Positions 54,514-64,000 are shown, counted from the first letter of the stretch. The stretch is 64,000 nucleotides of DNA from a virus (IMGVR_UViG_3300025005_000002:1-64000), one strand, 5' to 3'. Notes: generated by a model from the letters alone, not told the origin. Translations and numbers: made by a program.

Positions 54514-55440
54514 ATGCAGGAATTACCGGCAGAAAAGATTGCCCAGTTAAGAGAGCATTTTATTAAGATAAGCTGTCAACCAAGGCAAGAAATAATTAAT
54601 AAGATCGCTAGACAAATGTCAAATTTGGATATTGAAATTTTGGAGTGCCAGAAGGCATTAGTAGCCCGAATAAGAGAGCTGGAGGTTAAGAAATTTGAGT
54701 ATGACGCAATGCAGATCAAACCATCGGCAGAACTTAAGGGTGCGGAATTTGACAATTTGCTCCTTCATCCTGATATTGAAAATATTGAATTTGAGGGGTA
54801 TGGGATTATAGTAACCACAAAGCCAATCAAGATTGAGTATGGCGGGGAAATATATTTTATTGGTCGATTTAATATATATCTTGAAACAAATGGTGGTATT
54901 GGGTGGTTGTTAAGGTTTAAGAATTTAGATCAAAATATATTTGGTCATCCCCATCCGCATATGCAAACAAATGGGGTACCATGTCTGGGGAATATTAAGG
55001 AATGTATGCCCCATATGATAGGTGCCAATCAGTTTGCTGCGGCGATTAATGTTGCCATTCAATATTTAAAGTCATATTCAGATTCAGATCAATATGGGAA
55101 ACCTTATGTTATATTGGAAAACTGGCCCAAAATAAAACGAGAAAAGGAGAAAGTCGATGAAGTTAGCCGAGGCGTTGATCGAGCGGAAGGGATTACAGAA
55201 GAAGATCGAGCGATTATCGGAGCGGTTGGTGAACAATGCCAAGACTCAGGAGGGGGAAACGCCCTCCGAGAATCCCCTGGAGTTGATCAAAGAGATCAAC
55301 GGGACGAACGAGGAACTGACGCATCTGATCATAGAGATCAACAAGACGAACGCCCTGGTATACTTGAACCCAGCGCAAATGCCGGTGGTGACGCTGGCCG
55401 ATGCGTTGGCCAAGAGGGATGGGATCGCGAAGAAGCGTAA
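54514..55440 (+). CDS. Coiled coil + E2/UBC-like domain protein (paralog 1)
   Basis: HPHMQTNGVPCLG matches the E2 HPN-x7-C spacing; colinear with 63042-63911; 3' part overlaps the next gene. Confidence 0.65.
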   Translation: MQELPAEKIAQLREHFIKISCQPRQEIINKIARQMSNLDIEILECQKALVARIRELEVKKFEYDAMQIKPSAELKGAEFDNLLLHPDIENIEFEGYGIIVTTKPIKIEYGGEIYFIGRFNIYLETNGGIGWLLRFKNLDQNIFGHPHPHMQTNGVPCLGNIKECMPHMIGANQFAAAINVAIQYLKSYSDSDQYGKPYVILENWPKIKREKEKVDEVSRGVDRAEGITEEDRAIIGAVGEQCQDSGGGNALRESPGVDQRDQRDERGTDASDHRDQQDERPGILEPSANAGGDAGRCVGQEGWDREEA

Positions 55441-55630
55441 TATACTGGCGAAGTTCGCGGAAGCAGCGACAGAACCAGTGAGGGCGTATGGACGGTTGGA
55501 AGTGAAATATATCCGTACGATGAATATACCGGCGATTCAGAAAGAGATCGATGCTCTCGCCGCCGAGTATAATGCGTTAGATGCGAAGATCCAGGGAAAG
55601 AATTGGGAGATTGACCTGGTAGTGGACTGA
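55157..55630 (+). CDS. DIP1984-family (DUF6847-like) coiled-coil protein
   Basis: MKLAEALIER..LQKKI..L..RL..NAK.QEGE.P.E.P...I...NW signature; AAGGAG RBS. Confidence 0.8.
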   Translation: MKLAEALIERKGLQKKIERLSERLVNNAKTQEGETPSENPLELIKEINGTNEELTHLIIEINKTNALVYLNPAQMPVVTLADALAKRDGIAKKRNILAKFAEAATEPVRAYGRLEVKYIRTMNIPAIQKEIDALAAEYNALDAKIQGKNWEIDLVVD

Positions 55631-56396: not shown

Positions 56397-56945
56397 ATGA
56401 AAATTTGTTCTCATTGTAAAATTGAAAAACCTAGGAGTGAATTTCATAAACACAAAGCAAATAAAGATGGGTTAAACTATTGGTGTAAACCCTGCAATCG
56501 CACAGCAATTGGACAGTACCGGGCCACACCAAAGGGGGAAGAAGTAAAGAGAAAAATCAAGAAGAAGTACCGGACTACACCAAAGGGGAAAGAAGAAAAG
56601 AAAAAATCAGACAAGAAATACTGGGTTACACCAAATGGGAAATTATCTAAAAGAAAAGGAAAACTAAAACAAAAGTATAATATTACTCTTAAGGATTACG
56701 ATAAGATGTTAGAGACTCAAGGTGGGGTTTGCGCCATTTGTGGTACTGATAAACCAGGAGTTGGGTTTAATCATTTTCTTGTAGATCACGACCATAAAAC
56801 TGGTAAAGTTAGAGGTTTGCTTTGCAATATATGTAATATAATATTAGAGTATCCAAATGGACCTATTATGGATGGCATTCGATCCGCTTCTGTTGATTTA
56901 ACTGAGAGATATCTAAATATTATTAAGTATTTAAATAACAGATAA
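56397..56945 (+). CDS. HNH endonuclease, endonuclease VII type
   Basis: N-terminal CxxC...CxxC; KYNITLKDYDKMLETQGGVCAICG...VDHDHKTGKVRGLLCNICN. Confidence 0.85.
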   Translation: MKICSHCKIEKPRSEFHKHKANKDGLNYWCKPCNRTAIGQYRATPKGEEVKRKIKKKYRTTPKGKEEKKKSDKKYWVTPNGKLSKRKGKLKQKYNITLKDYDKMLETQGGVCAICGTDKPGVGFNHFLVDHDHKTGKVRGLLCNICNIILEYPNGPIMDGIRSASVDLTERYLNIIKYLNNR

Positions 56946-60782: not shown

Positions 60783-62462
60783 ATGGATGATAATGCAAAA
60801 CTGATGGAGGCCTTGGAGGTTATGAAGAAAAACCTCATTGAGGCCAAAAAAGTTATTATGGCACAAGAAGAGGTTTTGGATCAATTTCGTACCCCCCCCT
60901 TTCTTCAAGGTATCGTTATTGGTGGCGTTACTGGGCAGATAGAGTGGTCTAAGTTTGTTAAGGGTTTAAAGGTAAAACTTCGTAGGGATTCCAGTTTTGC
61001 CCATCAGAGTACAGTCCCCGGAGTAATACAAAAGATTGATGAGAGTGGTTGGGCTCAAGTCTTGTGGGATAACGGTAGTTCTAATTCGTATCGTACCGGT
61101 AAACCTGGGACTGACGAAGGTGTATGTGACCTTGAATTTGCTGAAAATTCACTTGGTGAAGAAATTTGTGTGCTTGAGGGTTCGTCGGTGCATTATGCCC
61201 AAAAGCCATATATTAGGGTAGAATTAGGCGATACGGTAACTCTAAATCCGATGACGAAGCAGGTAATTGGTGTCGTGGCTCCGGTGATATCTGGGGAGAT
61301 CCGATATGTTAATAAGGTGATATCAGATGAATTGGTGGAAGTCTCTCACCAGGATGCATCCAAAGTAGTACTCACTGGGAAATTTGCCAAAAAGATGGAA
61401 AAAGGGGACCGTGTTATTGTCGATAATACTGCAACAATTGTCCTGAACAACCTGGGAAAGGACGAGACAAAGTTTGAGGTTAAAACTTCATCAATGTCAA
61501 TCAACTGGGATGATATTGGTGGGTTGGAAGATGCAAAGAGAGAGATGGTCGAAATTGTGGAACTTCCTCATAAGTATAGCAATTTATATAAGTTTTATAA
61601 CAAGAAACCGGCAAAAGGGATCTTGTTGTGGGGCCCTCCTGGTTGTGGTAAGACCATGCTTGGAAAAGCAGCAGCTACTGCAATGGCTGCTATTCATAAG
61701 CAGAATGGCAATGGAAGCGGATTTCACTATATCAAGGGACCCGAGATCCTGGACAAATATGTGGGTGTGGCAGAGGCCACAATTCGCAGGATCTTCGAAA
61801 ATGCCAAAAAACACAAGGCTAAGAACGGGTTCCCTGCTGTAGTATTTATTGACGAAGCCGACGCCATCCTAGCTAGGCGTGGTTCTGGTATCAGTTCGGA
61901 CATAAATAATACCATCGTCCCGATGTTTTTGGCGGAGATGGATGGTATGGAAGAGTCTGGTGCACTGGTATTGCTTGCGACCAATAGGGCCGATGTACTT
62001 GATCCCGCAGTAACACGTGATGGGCGAATTGACAGGAAGATAAAAGTCACAAGGCCTACAGTGAAGTCTGCTGCTGAGATTTTTATGATCGCCTTAAAGG
62101 GCGTTCCCACCAATAAGGATATACCTAAGGTGGTACTCTCACAGAAGGCTTCTGAATCATTGTTTTCCGATACCAGAATATTATATGAGATTCGTACTAA
62201 AAGGGGTGGCATGATTCCGTTCACACTTAAGCAATTGGTGAATGGGGGGATGGTGGTCGGTATTGTGGATCAAGCGATTTCAATCGCTATCCACAAAGAC
62301 ATTAAGAGGTCAGCAAAGACTGGGGTATGTGAAGAGGATATAATGATGGCGATTGACAAGATTGAGGCACAGAACTGTGGGCTCAATCATAACACTGAAT
62401 TGGAAGAAGTTGTTGCTGGTTTTCGTGAAGATGTTACAAATATTATTCCTATAAGGAGGTAA
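60783..62462 (+). CDS. arc: ARC/Mpa-type proteasome-associated AAA+ ATPase with inserted MIB/HERC2-like domain
   Basis: Coiled coil + PP hinge, OB region, Walker A GPPGCGKT, pore loop KGPEILDKYVG, Walker B FIDEAD, RGSGISSD, TNRADVLDPAVTRDGRIDRKIKVTRP and ARC-like NGGMVVGIVD. Confidence 0.85.
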   Translation: MDDNAKLMEALEVMKKNLIEAKKVIMAQEEVLDQFRTPPFLQGIVIGGVTGQIEWSKFVKGLKVKLRRDSSFAHQSTVPGVIQKIDESGWAQVLWDNGSSNSYRTGKPGTDEGVCDLEFAENSLGEEICVLEGSSVHYAQKPYIRVELGDTVTLNPMTKQVIGVVAPVISGEIRYVNKVISDELVEVSHQDASKVVLTGKFAKKMEKGDRVIVDNTATIVLNNLGKDETKFEVKTSSMSINWDDIGGLEDAKREMVEIVELPHKYSNLYKFYNKKPAKGILLWGPPGCGKTMLGKAAATAMAAIHKQNGNGSGFHYIKGPEILDKYVGVAEATIRRIFENAKKHKAKNGFPAVVFIDEADAILARRGSGISSDINNTIVPMFLAEMDGMEESGALVLLATNRADVLDPAVTRDGRIDRKIKVTRPTVKSAAEIFMIALKGVPTNKDIPKVVLSQKASESLFSDTRILYEIRTKRGGMIPFTLKQLVNGGMVVGIVDQAISIAIHKDIKRSAKTGVCEEDIMMAIDKIEAQNCGLNHNTELEEVVAGFREDVTNIIPIRR

Positions 62463-62465
62463 GTT

Positions 62466-62693
62466 GTGAGTGCACAGGAGCAGATTAAGAAGAGGTCGCA
62501 TAAAGGCGGTGGGGGGGGCGGTTCTAATGATTTTGACGGTCTTGGGCTTGAAATGGCCGTTATCCCCGGCGTTGATGAAGTGTTACGCAATTTAGATAGT
62601 GATATTAAGAATGTTGGTGGGTTGATTAATAGGACACAGGAAAGGATTAATCAGAGACAGGACCGGCGTCCTTCGCATAATTGTGAATGTTAA
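62466..62693 (+). CDS. Pup-like small protein with non-canonical CEC C-terminus
   Basis: GTG start with AGGAGGT RBS; SAQEQIKKRSHKGGGGGG...DEVLRNLDSDI resembles Pup AQEQTKRGGGGG...DDLLDEIDDVL; directly after arc. Confidence 0.55.
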   Translation: MSAQEQIKKRSHKGGGGGGSNDFDGLGLEMAVIPGVDEVLRNLDSDIKNVGGLINRTQERINQRQDRRPSHNCEC

Positions 62694-63045
62694 TTTTGGA
62701 GGTGGCACAATGTTTAATGGGCTGCTTGTTTGTTTAATACTGGCTGGTGCGGTGGCATCAATTTCTTGCTCCATTAGTAAGGCTGGGGTTATGAGACCCA
62801 TCAGGCAATGGGTCCGTAAAAAGAATGCATGGCTTGGTAAACTTGTGTCCTGTGTATATTGTACTAGCCACTGGATATCAGCGATATTAGTTATAATTTA
62901 TAGGCCAATCCCGTTGCGTTTAGTACAACCAATTGATTCAATAGTTGCCATATTTTTGATAGTGACTATGGCAGCTGGGATGATTTATTGGATTGATTGG
63001 TCTATTGGTTTTCAACCAGATCCACCACAAGAGGGTAATCAATGA
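62683..63045 (+). CDS. DUF1360-like membrane protein
   Basis: TM helices with LVSCVYCTSHW motif. Confidence 0.65.
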   Translation: MNVNFGGGTMFNGLLVCLILAGAVASISCSISKAGVMRPIRQWVRKKNAWLGKLVSCVYCTSHWISAILVIIYRPIPLRLVQPIDSIVAIFLIVTMAAGMIYWIDWSIGFQPDPPQEGNQ

Positions 63046-63911
63046 GGGTACATCCAGATTCGGTGGTTGCTTTAAAAGAGGCCTATTTCAAGAATAAACC
63101 CGAATTATCTAGGTTTGTGGCTGGTCGTTTAAAGGTCAACAAACAAACCGTTGTTGGTGTACATGCCAAGCATTTTAAGGAGGTATGTAAGGTACTAAAA
63201 TTACCAATAAGTAAGTTAAAAAGTAGTCGTACTGTATATCGTGGAGTGTATATGGCTACAGTAGACGAATCATTTAAGTCAAAACTGAAAGATAAAAGAC
63301 AAGAAATGCGGCAAAAATATATTGAAATAGCTAGTGGTTTAAGGTCAAAAAAAGCAGTGGAACACCTAAAACATGCGATACATGATCAAGAAGCACGCAT
63401 CCACGCGATTCAAATAGATTTGGTAAATAACCTAAAAAATCTTGAGGGGAAAAATAGAGAATATAAAGTAATTTGTGAAGGTGATCAGGGTACCACAGAA
63501 AACAAAGGTGTTGAATTTGATAAGTTAATGGCTAATCCTGATATAGTAAGGATATTTATAGATGATAATTATTTTACTGTATGGACTAGACCTATTTATA
63601 TTAAGTATAATAATAAGATATATGATGTTGGTGAATTTAAAATAGTATTAGCAATTAACCCTACGGAATTTATAGTAAAAATGCGTAATTTGACCAGAAA
63701 GATTAAAGGTTATGCTCATCCACACATACGTAATAATGGGCGGCCATGTCTTGGTAATATCCAAGAATGTTTACCTCAAATGATTGCAGCACGGCAATTT
63801 GCAGCCGCTATTTTTGTATGTATTCAATATTTAAAATCAGTTAATGATAGTGGATATTATGTAAATATTCACAATTGGCCTTTAAAAATGGCAAAGAGAA
63901 GAGGGAAATAG
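63042..63911 (+). CDS. Coiled coil + E2/UBC-like domain protein (paralog 2)
   Basis: HPHIRNNGRPCLG; colinear with 54514-55440. Confidence 0.7.
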   Translation: MRVHPDSVVALKEAYFKNKPELSRFVAGRLKVNKQTVVGVHAKHFKEVCKVLKLPISKLKSSRTVYRGVYMATVDESFKSKLKDKRQEMRQKYIEIASGLRSKKAVEHLKHAIHDQEARIHAIQIDLVNNLKNLEGKNREYKVICEGDQGTTENKGVEFDKLMANPDIVRIFIDDNYFTVWTRPIYIKYNNKIYDVGEFKIVLAINPTEFIVKMRNLTRKIKGYAHPHIRNNGRPCLGNIQECLPQMIAARQFAAAIFVCIQYLKSVNDSGYYVNIHNWPLKMAKRRGK

Positions 63912-64000
63912 GAAAGAGATATCAAGGTAAGATTGGGGTATATTAATGGATACAATTCTAATGCGTCGAAAATATATAGATCTAGTTAGTGGTAATAGAT

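What the first reader, a model, noticed from the sequence alone, without database searches (positions are those of the whole stretch)
62466..62693. Pup-like peptide ending in Cys-Glu-Cys instead of GGE/GGQ
Seen: MSAQEQIKKRSHKGGGGGGSNDFD...GVDEVLRNLDSDIK...RRPSHNCEC, encoded 3 nt after the arc stop with a strong RBS. Established: M. tuberculosis Pup starts MAQEQTKRGGGGGDDDD, has a DDLLDEIDDVL helix that binds the Mpa coiled coil, and is ligated via a C-terminal Glu (GGE/GGQ). Inference: the ARC-binding part is retained but attachment may use a thiol, metal or disulfide, or the Glu one residue from the end. It could also be a non-conjugatable decoy that jams host pupylation.
Basis: partly seen in the sequence, partly recalled or inferred. 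Interest (0 to 1): 0.85.

Follow-up and report, generated by a model that had tools for sequence, protein, structure and literature searches.

The report
Pup-like microprotein with cysteine-pair tail
A giant phage encodes a 75-residue protein that resembles the bacterial degradation tag Pup but ends in two cysteines instead of Gly-Gly-Gln; it belongs to an undescribed family always sandwiched between a proteasome-type unfolding ATPase and a small membrane protein, hinting at a way to couple proteins to an unfoldase without any tagging enzyme.

Summary
The ORF is real and reads as described. I collected 43 complete relatives. All keep a C-terminal Cys pair (39 C-x-C, 4 a CC variant). In all 13 contexts inspected, wherever the flank is present, the gene follows an Mpa/ARC-like AAA ATPase and precedes a DUF1360 membrane protein with an invariant C-x-x-C-T-S-H-W.

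The Pfam and NCBIfam Pup models do not hit. A family profile does align to M. tuberculosis Pup over the Gly run and the Mpa-docking helix (hhalign 79%), beating 600 of 600 shuffles. So the "Pup-like" reading is partly supported. The peptide is not a Pup family member: there is no GGQ/GGE, and no PafA/Dop or proteasome was found in the phage or in two host-type genomes. The penultimate Glu is not conserved, and a decoy for host pupylation is unlikely.

Best reading: a ligase-free cofactor or tether of a proteasome-independent unfoldase, with the Cys pair probably pairing with the DUF1360 CxxC.

In this phage the module shares an operon with an E2-E2-JAB-E1-Ubl cassette. The scan met the same module before on other DNA (CPR bacteria, a prophage). 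I found no publication describing it.

The parts
60783..62462 (+). Mpa/ARC-like AAA+ unfoldase (559 aa from the ATG at 60783). Model: N-terminal helix 2-36, PP hinge, beta-barrel region 41-225 with an SH3-like insert, one AAA module. It ends IIPIRR, with no HbYX motif.
   Evidence: TIGR03689 pup_AAA 2.5e-89, below the equivalog cut-off. PF00004 2.3e-32. AF2 model pLDDT 79. Foldseek ranks 1-30 are all M. tuberculosis Mpa, E about 1e-32, over 500 aligned columns. C-termini of nine family members lack a penultimate Tyr.
62454..62459 (+). Shine-Dalgarno AGGAGG for the peptide, lying inside the last codons of the ATPase gene
   Evidence: Read directly from the sequence.
62466..62693 (+). The 75-aa Pup-like microprotein (the finding)
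   Evidence: It is the single copy in the phage genome.
62466..62525 (+). Basic N-terminus (M-x-x-Q-E-Q-I-K-K-R...) followed by the Gly run; Q4 is invariant in the first 16 members
   Evidence: Alignments A3 and A7. The Gly run aligns to Pup G9-G13.
62565..62663 (+). Amphipathic helix region (P-G-V-D-E-V-L-R-N-L-D-S-D-I...). Its first half aligns to the Mpa-binding helix of Pup.
   Evidence: 80% family consensus P..D.VL...D. hhalign to Pup residues 31-54. Shuffle control. Hydrophobic moment 1.94.
62682..62690 (+). C-terminal Cys-Glu-Cys: the family-defining Cys pair
   Evidence: The Cys pair is present in all 43 complete members; the middle residue is variable.
62710..63045 (+). DUF1360 three-TM membrane protein with C-x-x-C-T-S-H-W at the cytoplasmic end of TM2
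   Evidence: PF07098 1.5e-07, above the cut-off. The motif is invariant in 11 partners. The loop before the motif has 7 K/R and 0 D/E.
63042..63911 (+). E2/UBC-like protein B: coiled-coil N-terminus, then H-P-H-x7-C-L-G
   Evidence: Alignments A5/A6 with invariant HPH...CLG. The fold of paralogue C matches only E2 enzymes.
63946..64000 (+). Start of E2/UBC-like protein C (runs to 64578 in the genome). Downstream in the genome: JAB 64565-65308, E1/ThiF 65239-65940, Ubl 65955-66185.
   Evidence: AF2 pLDDT 76. VIA Z 7.4-8.3 to 50 E2 entries.
54514..55440 (+). Third E2-like paralogue (A), 7 kb upstream of the operon
   Evidence: Alignment A5, 38% identical to B, with the same HPH...CLG core.

Best explanation
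The ORF encodes a member of an undescribed family of Pup-related microproteins, 59-78 aa long. Their layout is a basic N-terminus, a Gly-rich acidic linker, a Pup-type amphipathic helix and a C-terminal cysteine pair. They work as dedicated partners of a proteasome-independent Mpa/ARC-like AAA+ unfoldase.

Shown: the peptide is always encoded directly after that ATPase and directly before a DUF1360 membrane protein. No Pup ligase, depupylase or 20S core accompanies it. Its Gly run and helix align with those of Pup beyond compositional chance.

Inferred: the helix docks on the N-terminal coiled coil of the ATPase hexamer, as Pup does on Mpa, and the flexible basic N-terminus can reach the pore. 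The Cys pair replaces enzymatic ligation. It couples the peptide, most likely through a shared metal ion or a disulfide, to the cytoplasmic-face C-x-x-C-T-S-H of DUF1360. That would tether or gate the unfoldase at the membrane, or make DUF1360 (or another thiol-bearing protein) its client.

In this phage lineage the three-gene module has been joined in one operon to an E2-E2-JAB-E1-Ubl cassette. Ubl-marked proteins are therefore plausible clients of the same unfoldase.
For: Real, conserved gene.

The Cys pair is present in 43 of 43 complete members.

The order ATPase-peptide-DUF1360 holds in every context where the flank exists: the window, L001-L003, L085/86, L087, L088, L089, L093-96, L097/98, L100 and L101. 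For 17 further peptide hits, the longest-contig length equals that of an ATPase hit.

ATPase is Mpa-like: TIGR03689 2.5e-89; PDB phmmer single-stretch hits to Mpa/ARC that include the beta-barrel region; AF2 model with helix 2-36 plus beta-barrels plus AAA; the top 30 Foldseek hits are all Mpa.

Pup similarity: hhalign of A8 against M. tuberculosis Pup (sequence as printed in PMC8138137) gives 79% probability and 41 aligned columns. It pairs D37/E38/V39/L40/L43/D44/I47 with Pup D37/D38/L39/L40/I43/D44/L47. The score of 28.6 exceeds 300 global shuffles (mean 9.1, max 15.8) and 300 local shuffles (mean 12.2, max 24.7).

No ligase or protease: PF03136 and PF00227 are absent from the phage (92% complete) and from G384 and G385. 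No ATPase of the family has an HbYX tail.

DUF1360: C-x-x-C-T-S-H-W is invariant in 11 partners, and it follows a strongly positive, hence cytoplasmic, loop.

Ubl cassette: ThiF 1.6e-23; JAMM motif plus weak PADLOC JAB hits; E2 fold. An E2-like gene follows DUF1360 in all five phage-type loci, and L088 has an E2-like/Ubl/JAB set beside the module.
Against: The Pup HMMs (Pfam PF05639; NCBIfam) do not hit the window peptide, and PF05639 hits none of the 11 members scanned. Family profiles do not retrieve Pup chains from the PDB at E up to 10. With the smaller, phage-dominated alignment, hhalign gave only 28% over the Gly run. The similarity could therefore be convergence on a shared docking surface.

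No binding was computed or measured.

The Cys-pair/DUF1360 pairing rests on adjacency and complementary motifs only. I could not check whether the CxxC is a general DUF1360 feature unrelated to the peptide. The four CC...WVED variants sit beside an unchanged DUF1360 motif, so no co-variation is seen.

The module is sporadic: 3 chance-level hits in 301 Patescibacteria genomes. Its biological role is therefore unknown.
Confidence: 0.5

Rival explanations
1. A true covalent tag with new chemistry. The Cys pair forms a disulfide, thioether or thioester with target proteins, and in the phage this may be helped by the neighbouring E1/E2 enzymes. Tagged proteins are then pulled into the ATPase as pupylated proteins are.
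For: Pup-like layout and helix. A flexible tail with an invariant thiol pair. In the phage, thioester-forming enzymes lie within 3 kb.
Against: Most loci have no E1/E2. E1 enzymes are known to activate a C-terminal Gly, and a separate beta-grasp-sized Ubl ending KIRGN sits next to the E1. No candidate conjugating enzyme is conserved with the peptide other than DUF1360.
Confidence: 0.15
2. A regulator or gate of the ATPase that does not involve DUF1360. For example, a redox- or metal-sensing plug or pseudo-substrate that occupies the coiled coil and pore until the thiols change state.
For: Obligate pairing with the ATPase. C-x-C motifs are redox- and metal-active in other proteins (recalled: Erv2 CGC arm, CCS domain 3 CXC).
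Against: It does not explain the equally strict presence of DUF1360 with its invariant CxxC.
Confidence: 0.15
3. A lipidated or membrane-inserted anchor. The C-terminal Cys pair is acylated or otherwise lipid-modified, perhaps by DUF1360, which places the ATPase on the membrane.
For: The spread of tails (CxC, CxCX, CxCXX, CC, CCxxx) recalls di-cysteine lipidation motifs of eukaryotic Rab proteins (recalled). The partner is an integral membrane protein with a Cys/His motif at the membrane face.
Against: No such modification system is known in bacteria or phages. DUF1360 shows no detected similarity to acyl- or prenyl-transferases.
Confidence: 0.08
4. One reading: a non-conjugatable Pup mimic that the phage uses to jam the host's Pup-proteasome system.
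For: It lacks GGQ/GGE and resembles Pup's docking helix.
Against: The same peptide with its own ATPase occurs in cellular genomes and mobile islands. Two such ~1 Mb genomes have no PafA/Dop and no proteasome. The invariant Cys pair and the DUF1360 partner would be unnecessary for a decoy.
Confidence: 0.04

Closest known systems
Pup (prokaryotic ubiquitin-like protein; Pfam PF05639) with Mpa/ARC in the actinobacterial Pup-proteasome system
   Same: A small, largely disordered protein encoded beside an Mpa/ARC-type ATPase. It has a Gly run followed by an acidic amphipathic helix with the register DD[VL]L-x-E-[VI]-D-x-x-L, matching Pup's Mpa-docking helix. The ATPase has the Mpa architecture.
   Different: It ends in a Cys pair, not GG[QE]. 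No PafA, Dop or 20S core is present, and the ATPase lacks the HbYX tail. It is not detected by the Pup HMMs. It is always followed by a DUF1360 membrane protein. It occurs in phages, mobile islands and ~1 Mb CPR-type genomes rather than in Actinobacteria.
UBact (Pup homologue of Nitrospirae and other Gram-negative phyla)
   Same: A Pup-related small protein outside Actinobacteria, linked to an ARC-type ATPase.
   Different: As I recall it, UBact ends in R-[ST]-G-[EQ] and comes with PafA/Dop-type ligases and proteasome subunits; none of these is present here. No NCBIfam or Pfam family hit the peptide.
[quoted passage not shown] 2020, PMC7159879)
   Same: A ubiquitin-type E1/E2/JAB/Ubl set is genomically joined to a Pup/ARC-type module.
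   Different: The published case concerns Thermofonsia and Planctomycetes and a genuine Pup-conjugation system with ligases. It mentions no Cys-tailed peptide, no DUF1360 and no phage.
Bil and Bub bacterial ubiquitination-like operons, and type II CBASS Cap2/Cap3
   Same: Prokaryotic E1, E2, JAB and Ubl genes in one operon on mobile elements.
   Different: Those systems include neither an ARC-like unfoldase nor a Cys-tailed peptide. Here the E1 is a minimal 233-aa ThiF, and the E2s carry long coiled-coil N-termini and are triplicated.
Zinc clasp of CD4/CD8 (C-x-C) with Lck (C-x-x-C), and the C-terminal CGC arm of Erv2 (both recalled; analogies only)
   Same: A flexible C-x-C on one chain pairs with a C-x-x-C on another, either to share a metal ion or to relay a disulfide.
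   Different: Unrelated proteins. The analogy is not tested here.

Membership tests
Pup (PF05639 / TIGR03687) | Significant match to the family HMM | tested here: not met
   No Pfam or NCBIfam hit for the window peptide at E up to 1. None of 11 members hits PF05639 at E up to 10. PF05639 is not found in the phage genome.
Pup (PF05639 / TIGR03687) | C-terminal Gly-Gly-Gln/Glu used for isopeptide ligation | tested here: not met
   The peptide ends N-C-E-C. All 43 complete relatives end in a Cys pair. The internal GG (51-52) is lost in distant members.
Pup (PF05639 / TIGR03687) | Co-occurrence with a PafA/Dop ligase or deamidase | tested here: not met
   PF03136 is absent from the phage (92% complete) and from G384 and G385. 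None lies within 6-9 kb of the peptide in any locus. The phage host genome is unknown.
Pup (PF05639 / TIGR03687) | Helix that docks on the Mpa/ARC coiled coil | tested here: inconclusive
   Sequence register shared with Pup residues 37-47 (hhalign 79%; 0 of 600 shuffles reach the score). No binding prediction was possible.
Mpa/ARC proteasomal ATPase (TIGR03689) | N-terminal coiled coil, OB-type beta-barrels and a single AAA module | tested here: met
   AF2 model. Foldseek ranks 1-30 are Mpa, E about 1e-32, 500+ columns. TIGR03689 is the best NCBIfam hit.
Mpa/ARC proteasomal ATPase (TIGR03689) | Score above the equivalog cut-off, and a C-terminal HbYX-type tail (GQYL) for 20S docking | tested here: not met
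   300 bits against a cut-off of 505. The protein ends IIPIRR, and eight relatives also lack a penultimate Tyr. No proteasome gene was found.
DUF1360 (PF07098) | Match above the Pfam gathering score | tested here: met
   31.8 bits against 21. The L086 partner scores 29.3 bits.
E2 / UBC fold (neighbouring genes) | UBC core fold with an HP[NH] motif and a catalytic Cys ten residues later | tested here: met
   All 50 best VIA rows are E2 enzymes, Z 7.4-8.3, about 120 of 148 residues aligned. Foldseek probability reaches 0.98 but E is only about 0.03. H-P-H-x7-C-L-G is invariant in six members. The spacing is equal to HPN-x7-C of UbcH5, as I recall it. No Pfam E2 family hits.
E1 / ThiF (downstream gene, genome 65239-65940) | ThiF adenylation domain | tested here: met
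   PF00899 1.6e-23. PADLOC E1-E2 models down to 5.6e-11.
JAB/JAMM peptidase (genome 64565-65308) | H-x-H-x7-S-x2-D metal site | tested here: met
   HVHPGSWVGPSAQD read in the translation. Only weak PADLOC JAB hits, E 0.016; no Pfam hit.

The most novel reading that the evidence does not exclude
The Cys-pair peptides are a third kind of prokaryotic protein tag. In this reading a Pup-derived docking module couples to clients without any ligase, through a reversible metal bridge or disulfide with a C-x-x-C partner, and hands them to a proteasome-free Mpa-like unfoldase at the membrane. In giant phages this device has been wired to a full ubiquitin-like E1/E2/JAB/Ubl cascade, giving a virus-encoded 'tag and unfold' pathway.
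Probability: 0.2. Interest if true: 0.9.

Novelty: new variant of a known kind. Interest (0 to 1): 0.7.

Why it matters
Pupylation is the only bacterial pathway known to route proteins to an Mpa/ARC unfoldase, and it depends on the PafA/Dop enzymes and, for degradation, on a 20S core. This family keeps the recognition half of that system (Pup-type helix and Mpa-type ATPase). It replaces the conjugation half with two cysteines and a membrane partner, and it has no protease.

If the inferred mechanism holds, three things follow. Pup-type recognition would be older or more versatile than pupylation. There would be an enzyme-free way to load an AAA+ motor. And three small genes would form a tractable system for studying it.

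The phage version adds a direct genomic link between a ubiquitin-like conjugation cascade and an unfoldase outside eukaryotes and archaea, carried by a virus. That bears on how phages remodel or defend against host proteomes.

Tried and rejected
No binding test was made.

Internal GG (51-52) as a processing site for a ubiquitin-like C-terminus. Rejected, because the GG is not conserved in distant members.

Penultimate Glu as the ligation residue. Rejected, because the position is variable.

Searches that gave nothing:
- Viral-contig scans with the peptide alignment and with the ATPase found no relatives.
- tblastn of the peptide and of DUF1360 against isolated phages found nothing.
- The Brevundimonas phages annotated with a 'proteasome-associated ATPase' lack both the peptide and DUF1360.
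- The genome-contig scan with the ATPase returned mostly FtsH/Cdc48-type AAA proteins. The five best loci had no Cys-tailed ORF after the ATPase.
- A first attempt to fetch Pup genes from the phylum of an 'Actinobacteria' MAG found none in 81 genomes. I used the Pup sequence printed in PMC8138137 instead.
- The protein atlas gave only sub-threshold look-alikes.
- The PHROGs and PADLOC libraries do not know the peptide.
- The gene upstream of the phage ATPase is unrelated to the conserved 96-aa upstream protein of the cellular modules.
- The search for an outgroup of DUF1360 proteins failed; its one hit is a false positive antisense to fusA.
- Literature searches found no description of the module.

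Full report
OBSERVATION

The window is the first 64 kb of a 178-kb IMG/VR phage record that is estimated 92% complete. At 62466-62693 (+) there is a 75-codon ORF with a GTG start. An AGGAGG box sits at 62454-62459. The peptide is the only copy in the phage genome.

IS IT A REAL GENE?

Yes.
- A word-indexed search found six relatives of 74-76 aa (E 1e-21 to 1e-29).
- A full HMMER profile search of 1.8 billion representatives added four more at 32-51% identity.
- After I had found distant cellular members through their neighbourhoods, a family-profile search gave 42 hits.
- Together with the window peptide there are 44 complete family sequences, that is 43 relatives. Of the relatives, 39 have C-x-C within the last five residues (CEC, CDC, CSC, CRC, CTC, CGC, CVC, CFCFR, CGCF, CGCW, CTCCC and others), and four carry a CC...WVED variant. 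One further hit is cut off by a contig end.
- The residue between the cysteines is free to vary.
- At the 80% level the family consensus is M1, Q4, a Gly pair, P..D.VL...D and C.C.

NEIGHBOURHOOD

The upstream gene (60783-62462) is an Mpa/ARC-type ATPase.
- Its best NCBIfam model is TIGR03689 pup_AAA (2.5e-89, below the equivalog cut-off).
- The only single-stretch PDB sequence matches that reach into the N-terminal beta-barrel region are Mpa and ARC.
- An AlphaFold2 model (pLDDT 79) shows a 35-residue N-terminal helix, a PP hinge, beta-barrels and one AAA module.
- The 30 best Foldseek matches of the model are all M. tuberculosis Mpa (E about 1e-32, more than 500 aligned columns), ahead of the 26S Rpt subunits at about 1e-23.
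- The protein ends IIPIRR. Neither it nor eight relatives have an HbYX-type tail.

The downstream gene (62710-63045) is a DUF1360 protein, above the Pfam cut-off. It has three hydrophobic segments. The motif C-x-x-C-T-S-H-W sits at the end of a loop with seven K/R and no acidic residue, so by the positive-inside rule it lies at the cytoplasmic face.

I inspected 13 contexts of family members. These were four phage-type contig sets, a defence or mobile island, a Kerfeldbacteria MAG, three other NCBI assemblies and two metagenome contigs. Wherever the flank exists, the ATPase precedes the peptide and DUF1360 follows it. Twice these were ORFs that the original annotation had missed. The DUF1360 motif is invariant in all 11 partners. 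Seventeen further peptide hits share their longest-contig length with an ATPase hit.

The cellular versions add a conserved ~96-aa protein upstream of the ATPase that ends in SGGQS. The phage lacks it.

THE PHAGE-SPECIFIC ADDITION

After DUF1360 the phage operon continues as follows.
- Two paralogous proteins carry H-P-H-x7-C-L-G (63042-63911; 63946-64578). A third copy lies at 54514-55440.
- A JAMM peptidase follows (HVHPGSWVGPSAQD; 64565-65308).
- A 233-aa ThiF/E1 follows (PF00899 1.6e-23; 65239-65940).
- A 76-aa protein ending KIRGN follows (65955-66185).

A model of the shortest paralogue (pLDDT 76) matches only E2 ubiquitin-conjugating enzymes. Foldseek probability reaches 0.98 but E is only about 0.03. 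The 50 best VIA-align rows are all E2s, with Z 7.4-8.3 and about 120 aligned residues. That Z range alone is middling. The uniform family of the hits, the near-complete coverage of the UBC core and the motif make the assignment sound.

An E2-like gene follows DUF1360 in all five phage-type loci. One cellular locus, L088, has an E2-like protein, an 86-aa protein ending ...GNAEGGIQTS, a Prok-JAB protein and a second AAA ATPase right beside the module. The beta-grasp modifier role is thus already filled by another gene. Most loci with the peptide have no E1/E2. The peptide's function therefore does not depend on that cascade.

IS IT PUP?

By the family's own criteria it is not.
- The Pfam and NCBIfam Pup models do not hit the window peptide, and the Pfam model hits none of the 11 relatives scanned.
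- Family profiles do not retrieve Pup chains from the PDB.
- The GG[QE] end is missing.
- PafA/Dop and proteasome or HslV genes are absent from the phage and from the two ~1 Mb genomes with the module that the tool holds.

The resemblance is nevertheless not just composition. I used the M. tuberculosis Pup sequence as printed in PMC8138137. The small phage-dominated alignment aligned only the Gly run (28%), and pairwise BLASTP gave E 0.65. The 44-member alignment gave 79% probability over 41 columns. It placed the Gly runs together and put D37-E38-V39-L40-x-x-L43-D44-x-x-I47 on Pup D37-D38-L39-L40-x-x-I43-D44-x-x-L47. The score of 28.6 exceeded all 300 global shuffles of Pup (mean 9.1, maximum 15.8) and all 300 shuffles confined to 8-residue blocks (mean 12.2, maximum 24.7).

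The helix concerned is the one that, by established knowledge, folds onto the Mpa coiled coil. The partner ATPase is an Mpa homologue. Remote homology, or convergence on the same docking mode, is therefore the reasonable reading. I cannot tell the two apart.

MECHANISM

Shown: obligate linkage of the three genes; an Mpa-type motor without a proteasome-docking tail; no ligase or protease; a Pup-type helix; an invariant thiol pair on a flexible tail; and an invariant C-x-x-C-T-S-H at the cytoplasmic face of the membrane partner.

Inferred: the helix docks on the coiled coil and the basic N-terminus can reach the pore. The Cys pair takes over the coupling job that PafA does for Pup. The most likely way is sharing a metal ion or a disulfide with DUF1360, in the manner of the CD4-Lck zinc clasp or the Erv2 CGC arm (both recalled; analogies only). 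That would tether or gate the unfoldase at the membrane, or present DUF1360 or another thiol protein as a client.

I rate this composite at 0.5. The ATPase-cofactor part is more likely than that, and the DUF1360 pairing less likely.

The decoy fits worst, because the peptide travels with its own ATPase in genomes that have no Pup system.

The contexts are a defence island with RT, Fic, RM and Vsr genes, phage-like gene sets and this phage. They suggest a role in phage-host conflict, but nothing here tests that.

WHAT IS KNOWN

I found no paper describing the module. DUF1360 occurs in two unrelated papers. The recent work on bacterial ubiquitination systems lists CBASS, Bil and Bub, none of which has an ARC-like ATPase. 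Kaur et al. 2020 mention in one sentence a Ubl system coupled to a genuine Pup-conjugation system in Thermofonsia and Planctomycetes. That is a different arrangement.

After I had reached the reading above, the scan's own index showed that earlier follow-ups met the same ATPase-peptide-DUF1360 module in CPR bacteria and a prophage (e1-876981, e1-1077122, e1-833853, e1-1077124). It also showed a related Ubl cassette beside an ARC-like ATPase in a CPR genome and in giant phages (e1-5295640). These agree with what I found, but they are not independent evidence.

What this locus adds is twofold. One is a phage-type subfamily of the peptide, with a longer second helix and CEC/CSC ends. The other is its fusion into one operon with the E2-E2-JAB-E1-Ubl cassette.

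LIMITS

- There are no expression data.
- The host is unknown. The phage is very divergent: of nine large ORFs scanned, only a DNA ligase matched PHROGs.
- Whether the CxxC is a general feature of DUF1360 could not be checked.
- The Ubl assignment of the 76-aa protein rests on its size, its position and its KIRGN tail only.

Noticed in passing
L085:7708-8004, L087:5708-6004, L100:5025-5315, L101:4964-5254: In cellular versions of the module, a highly conserved ~96-aa protein overlaps the start of the ATPase gene and ends ...R/K-S-G-G-Q-S. This is a GGQ-type tail one residue from the end, like Pup's. The L089 homologue lacks the tail, and the phage has no such gene. It could be the real conjugatable tag of the cellular module.
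   Followed up: partly
window 60960-61150 (ATPase residues ~60-125): An SH3-like insert in the N-terminal beta-barrel region gives weak hits to MIB_HERC2 (2.6e-4) and DUF4314. Its consensus (G.RV.IRRDS...GWV.V.FDDG..N.YR.G...G.CDLE) is conserved across the whole ATPase family, so it is a family trait rather than a phage oddity.
   Followed up: partly
window 54514-55440 and 55157-55630: The third E2-like paralogue has a long acidic, Arg/Asp-rich low-complexity tail. It is overlapped in another frame by a 157-aa ORF, so one of the two readings of 55157-55440 is probably not coding.
   Followed up: no
genome 66067-66909 (just beyond the window): The ORF after the Ubl has weak SAM-methyltransferase hits (MetW 6.7e-4) and overlaps the Ubl gene by about 120 nt as called from a TTG. 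Its true start is probably further downstream.
   Followed up: no
L088:9068-12827: This cellular locus has a second, divergent AAA ATPase (558 aa). It is followed by an E2-like protein (285 aa), a 271-aa protein that lacks the HPH...C motif, an 86-aa protein ending GNAEGGIQTS and a Prok-JAB protein. All lie next to the ATPase-peptide-DUF1360 module.
   Followed up: partly
L101:4964-6988: The ATPase appears split. A 66-aa ORF carries the N-terminal coiled coil and PP hinge, and a 518-aa ORF carries the rest. This may be a frameshift or a sequencing error.
   Followed up: no
window 56397-56945: A 182-aa ORF with Cys-rich repeats and an HNH-like C-terminal half lies among many small ORFs between the E2-like paralogue A and the operon.
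   Followed up: no
window 1-55000: Of nine large ORFs scanned against PHROGs, only one (31890-33503, ATP-dependent DNA ligase, 1.2e-34) had any match. The phage is very far from cultured phages.
   Followed up: partly
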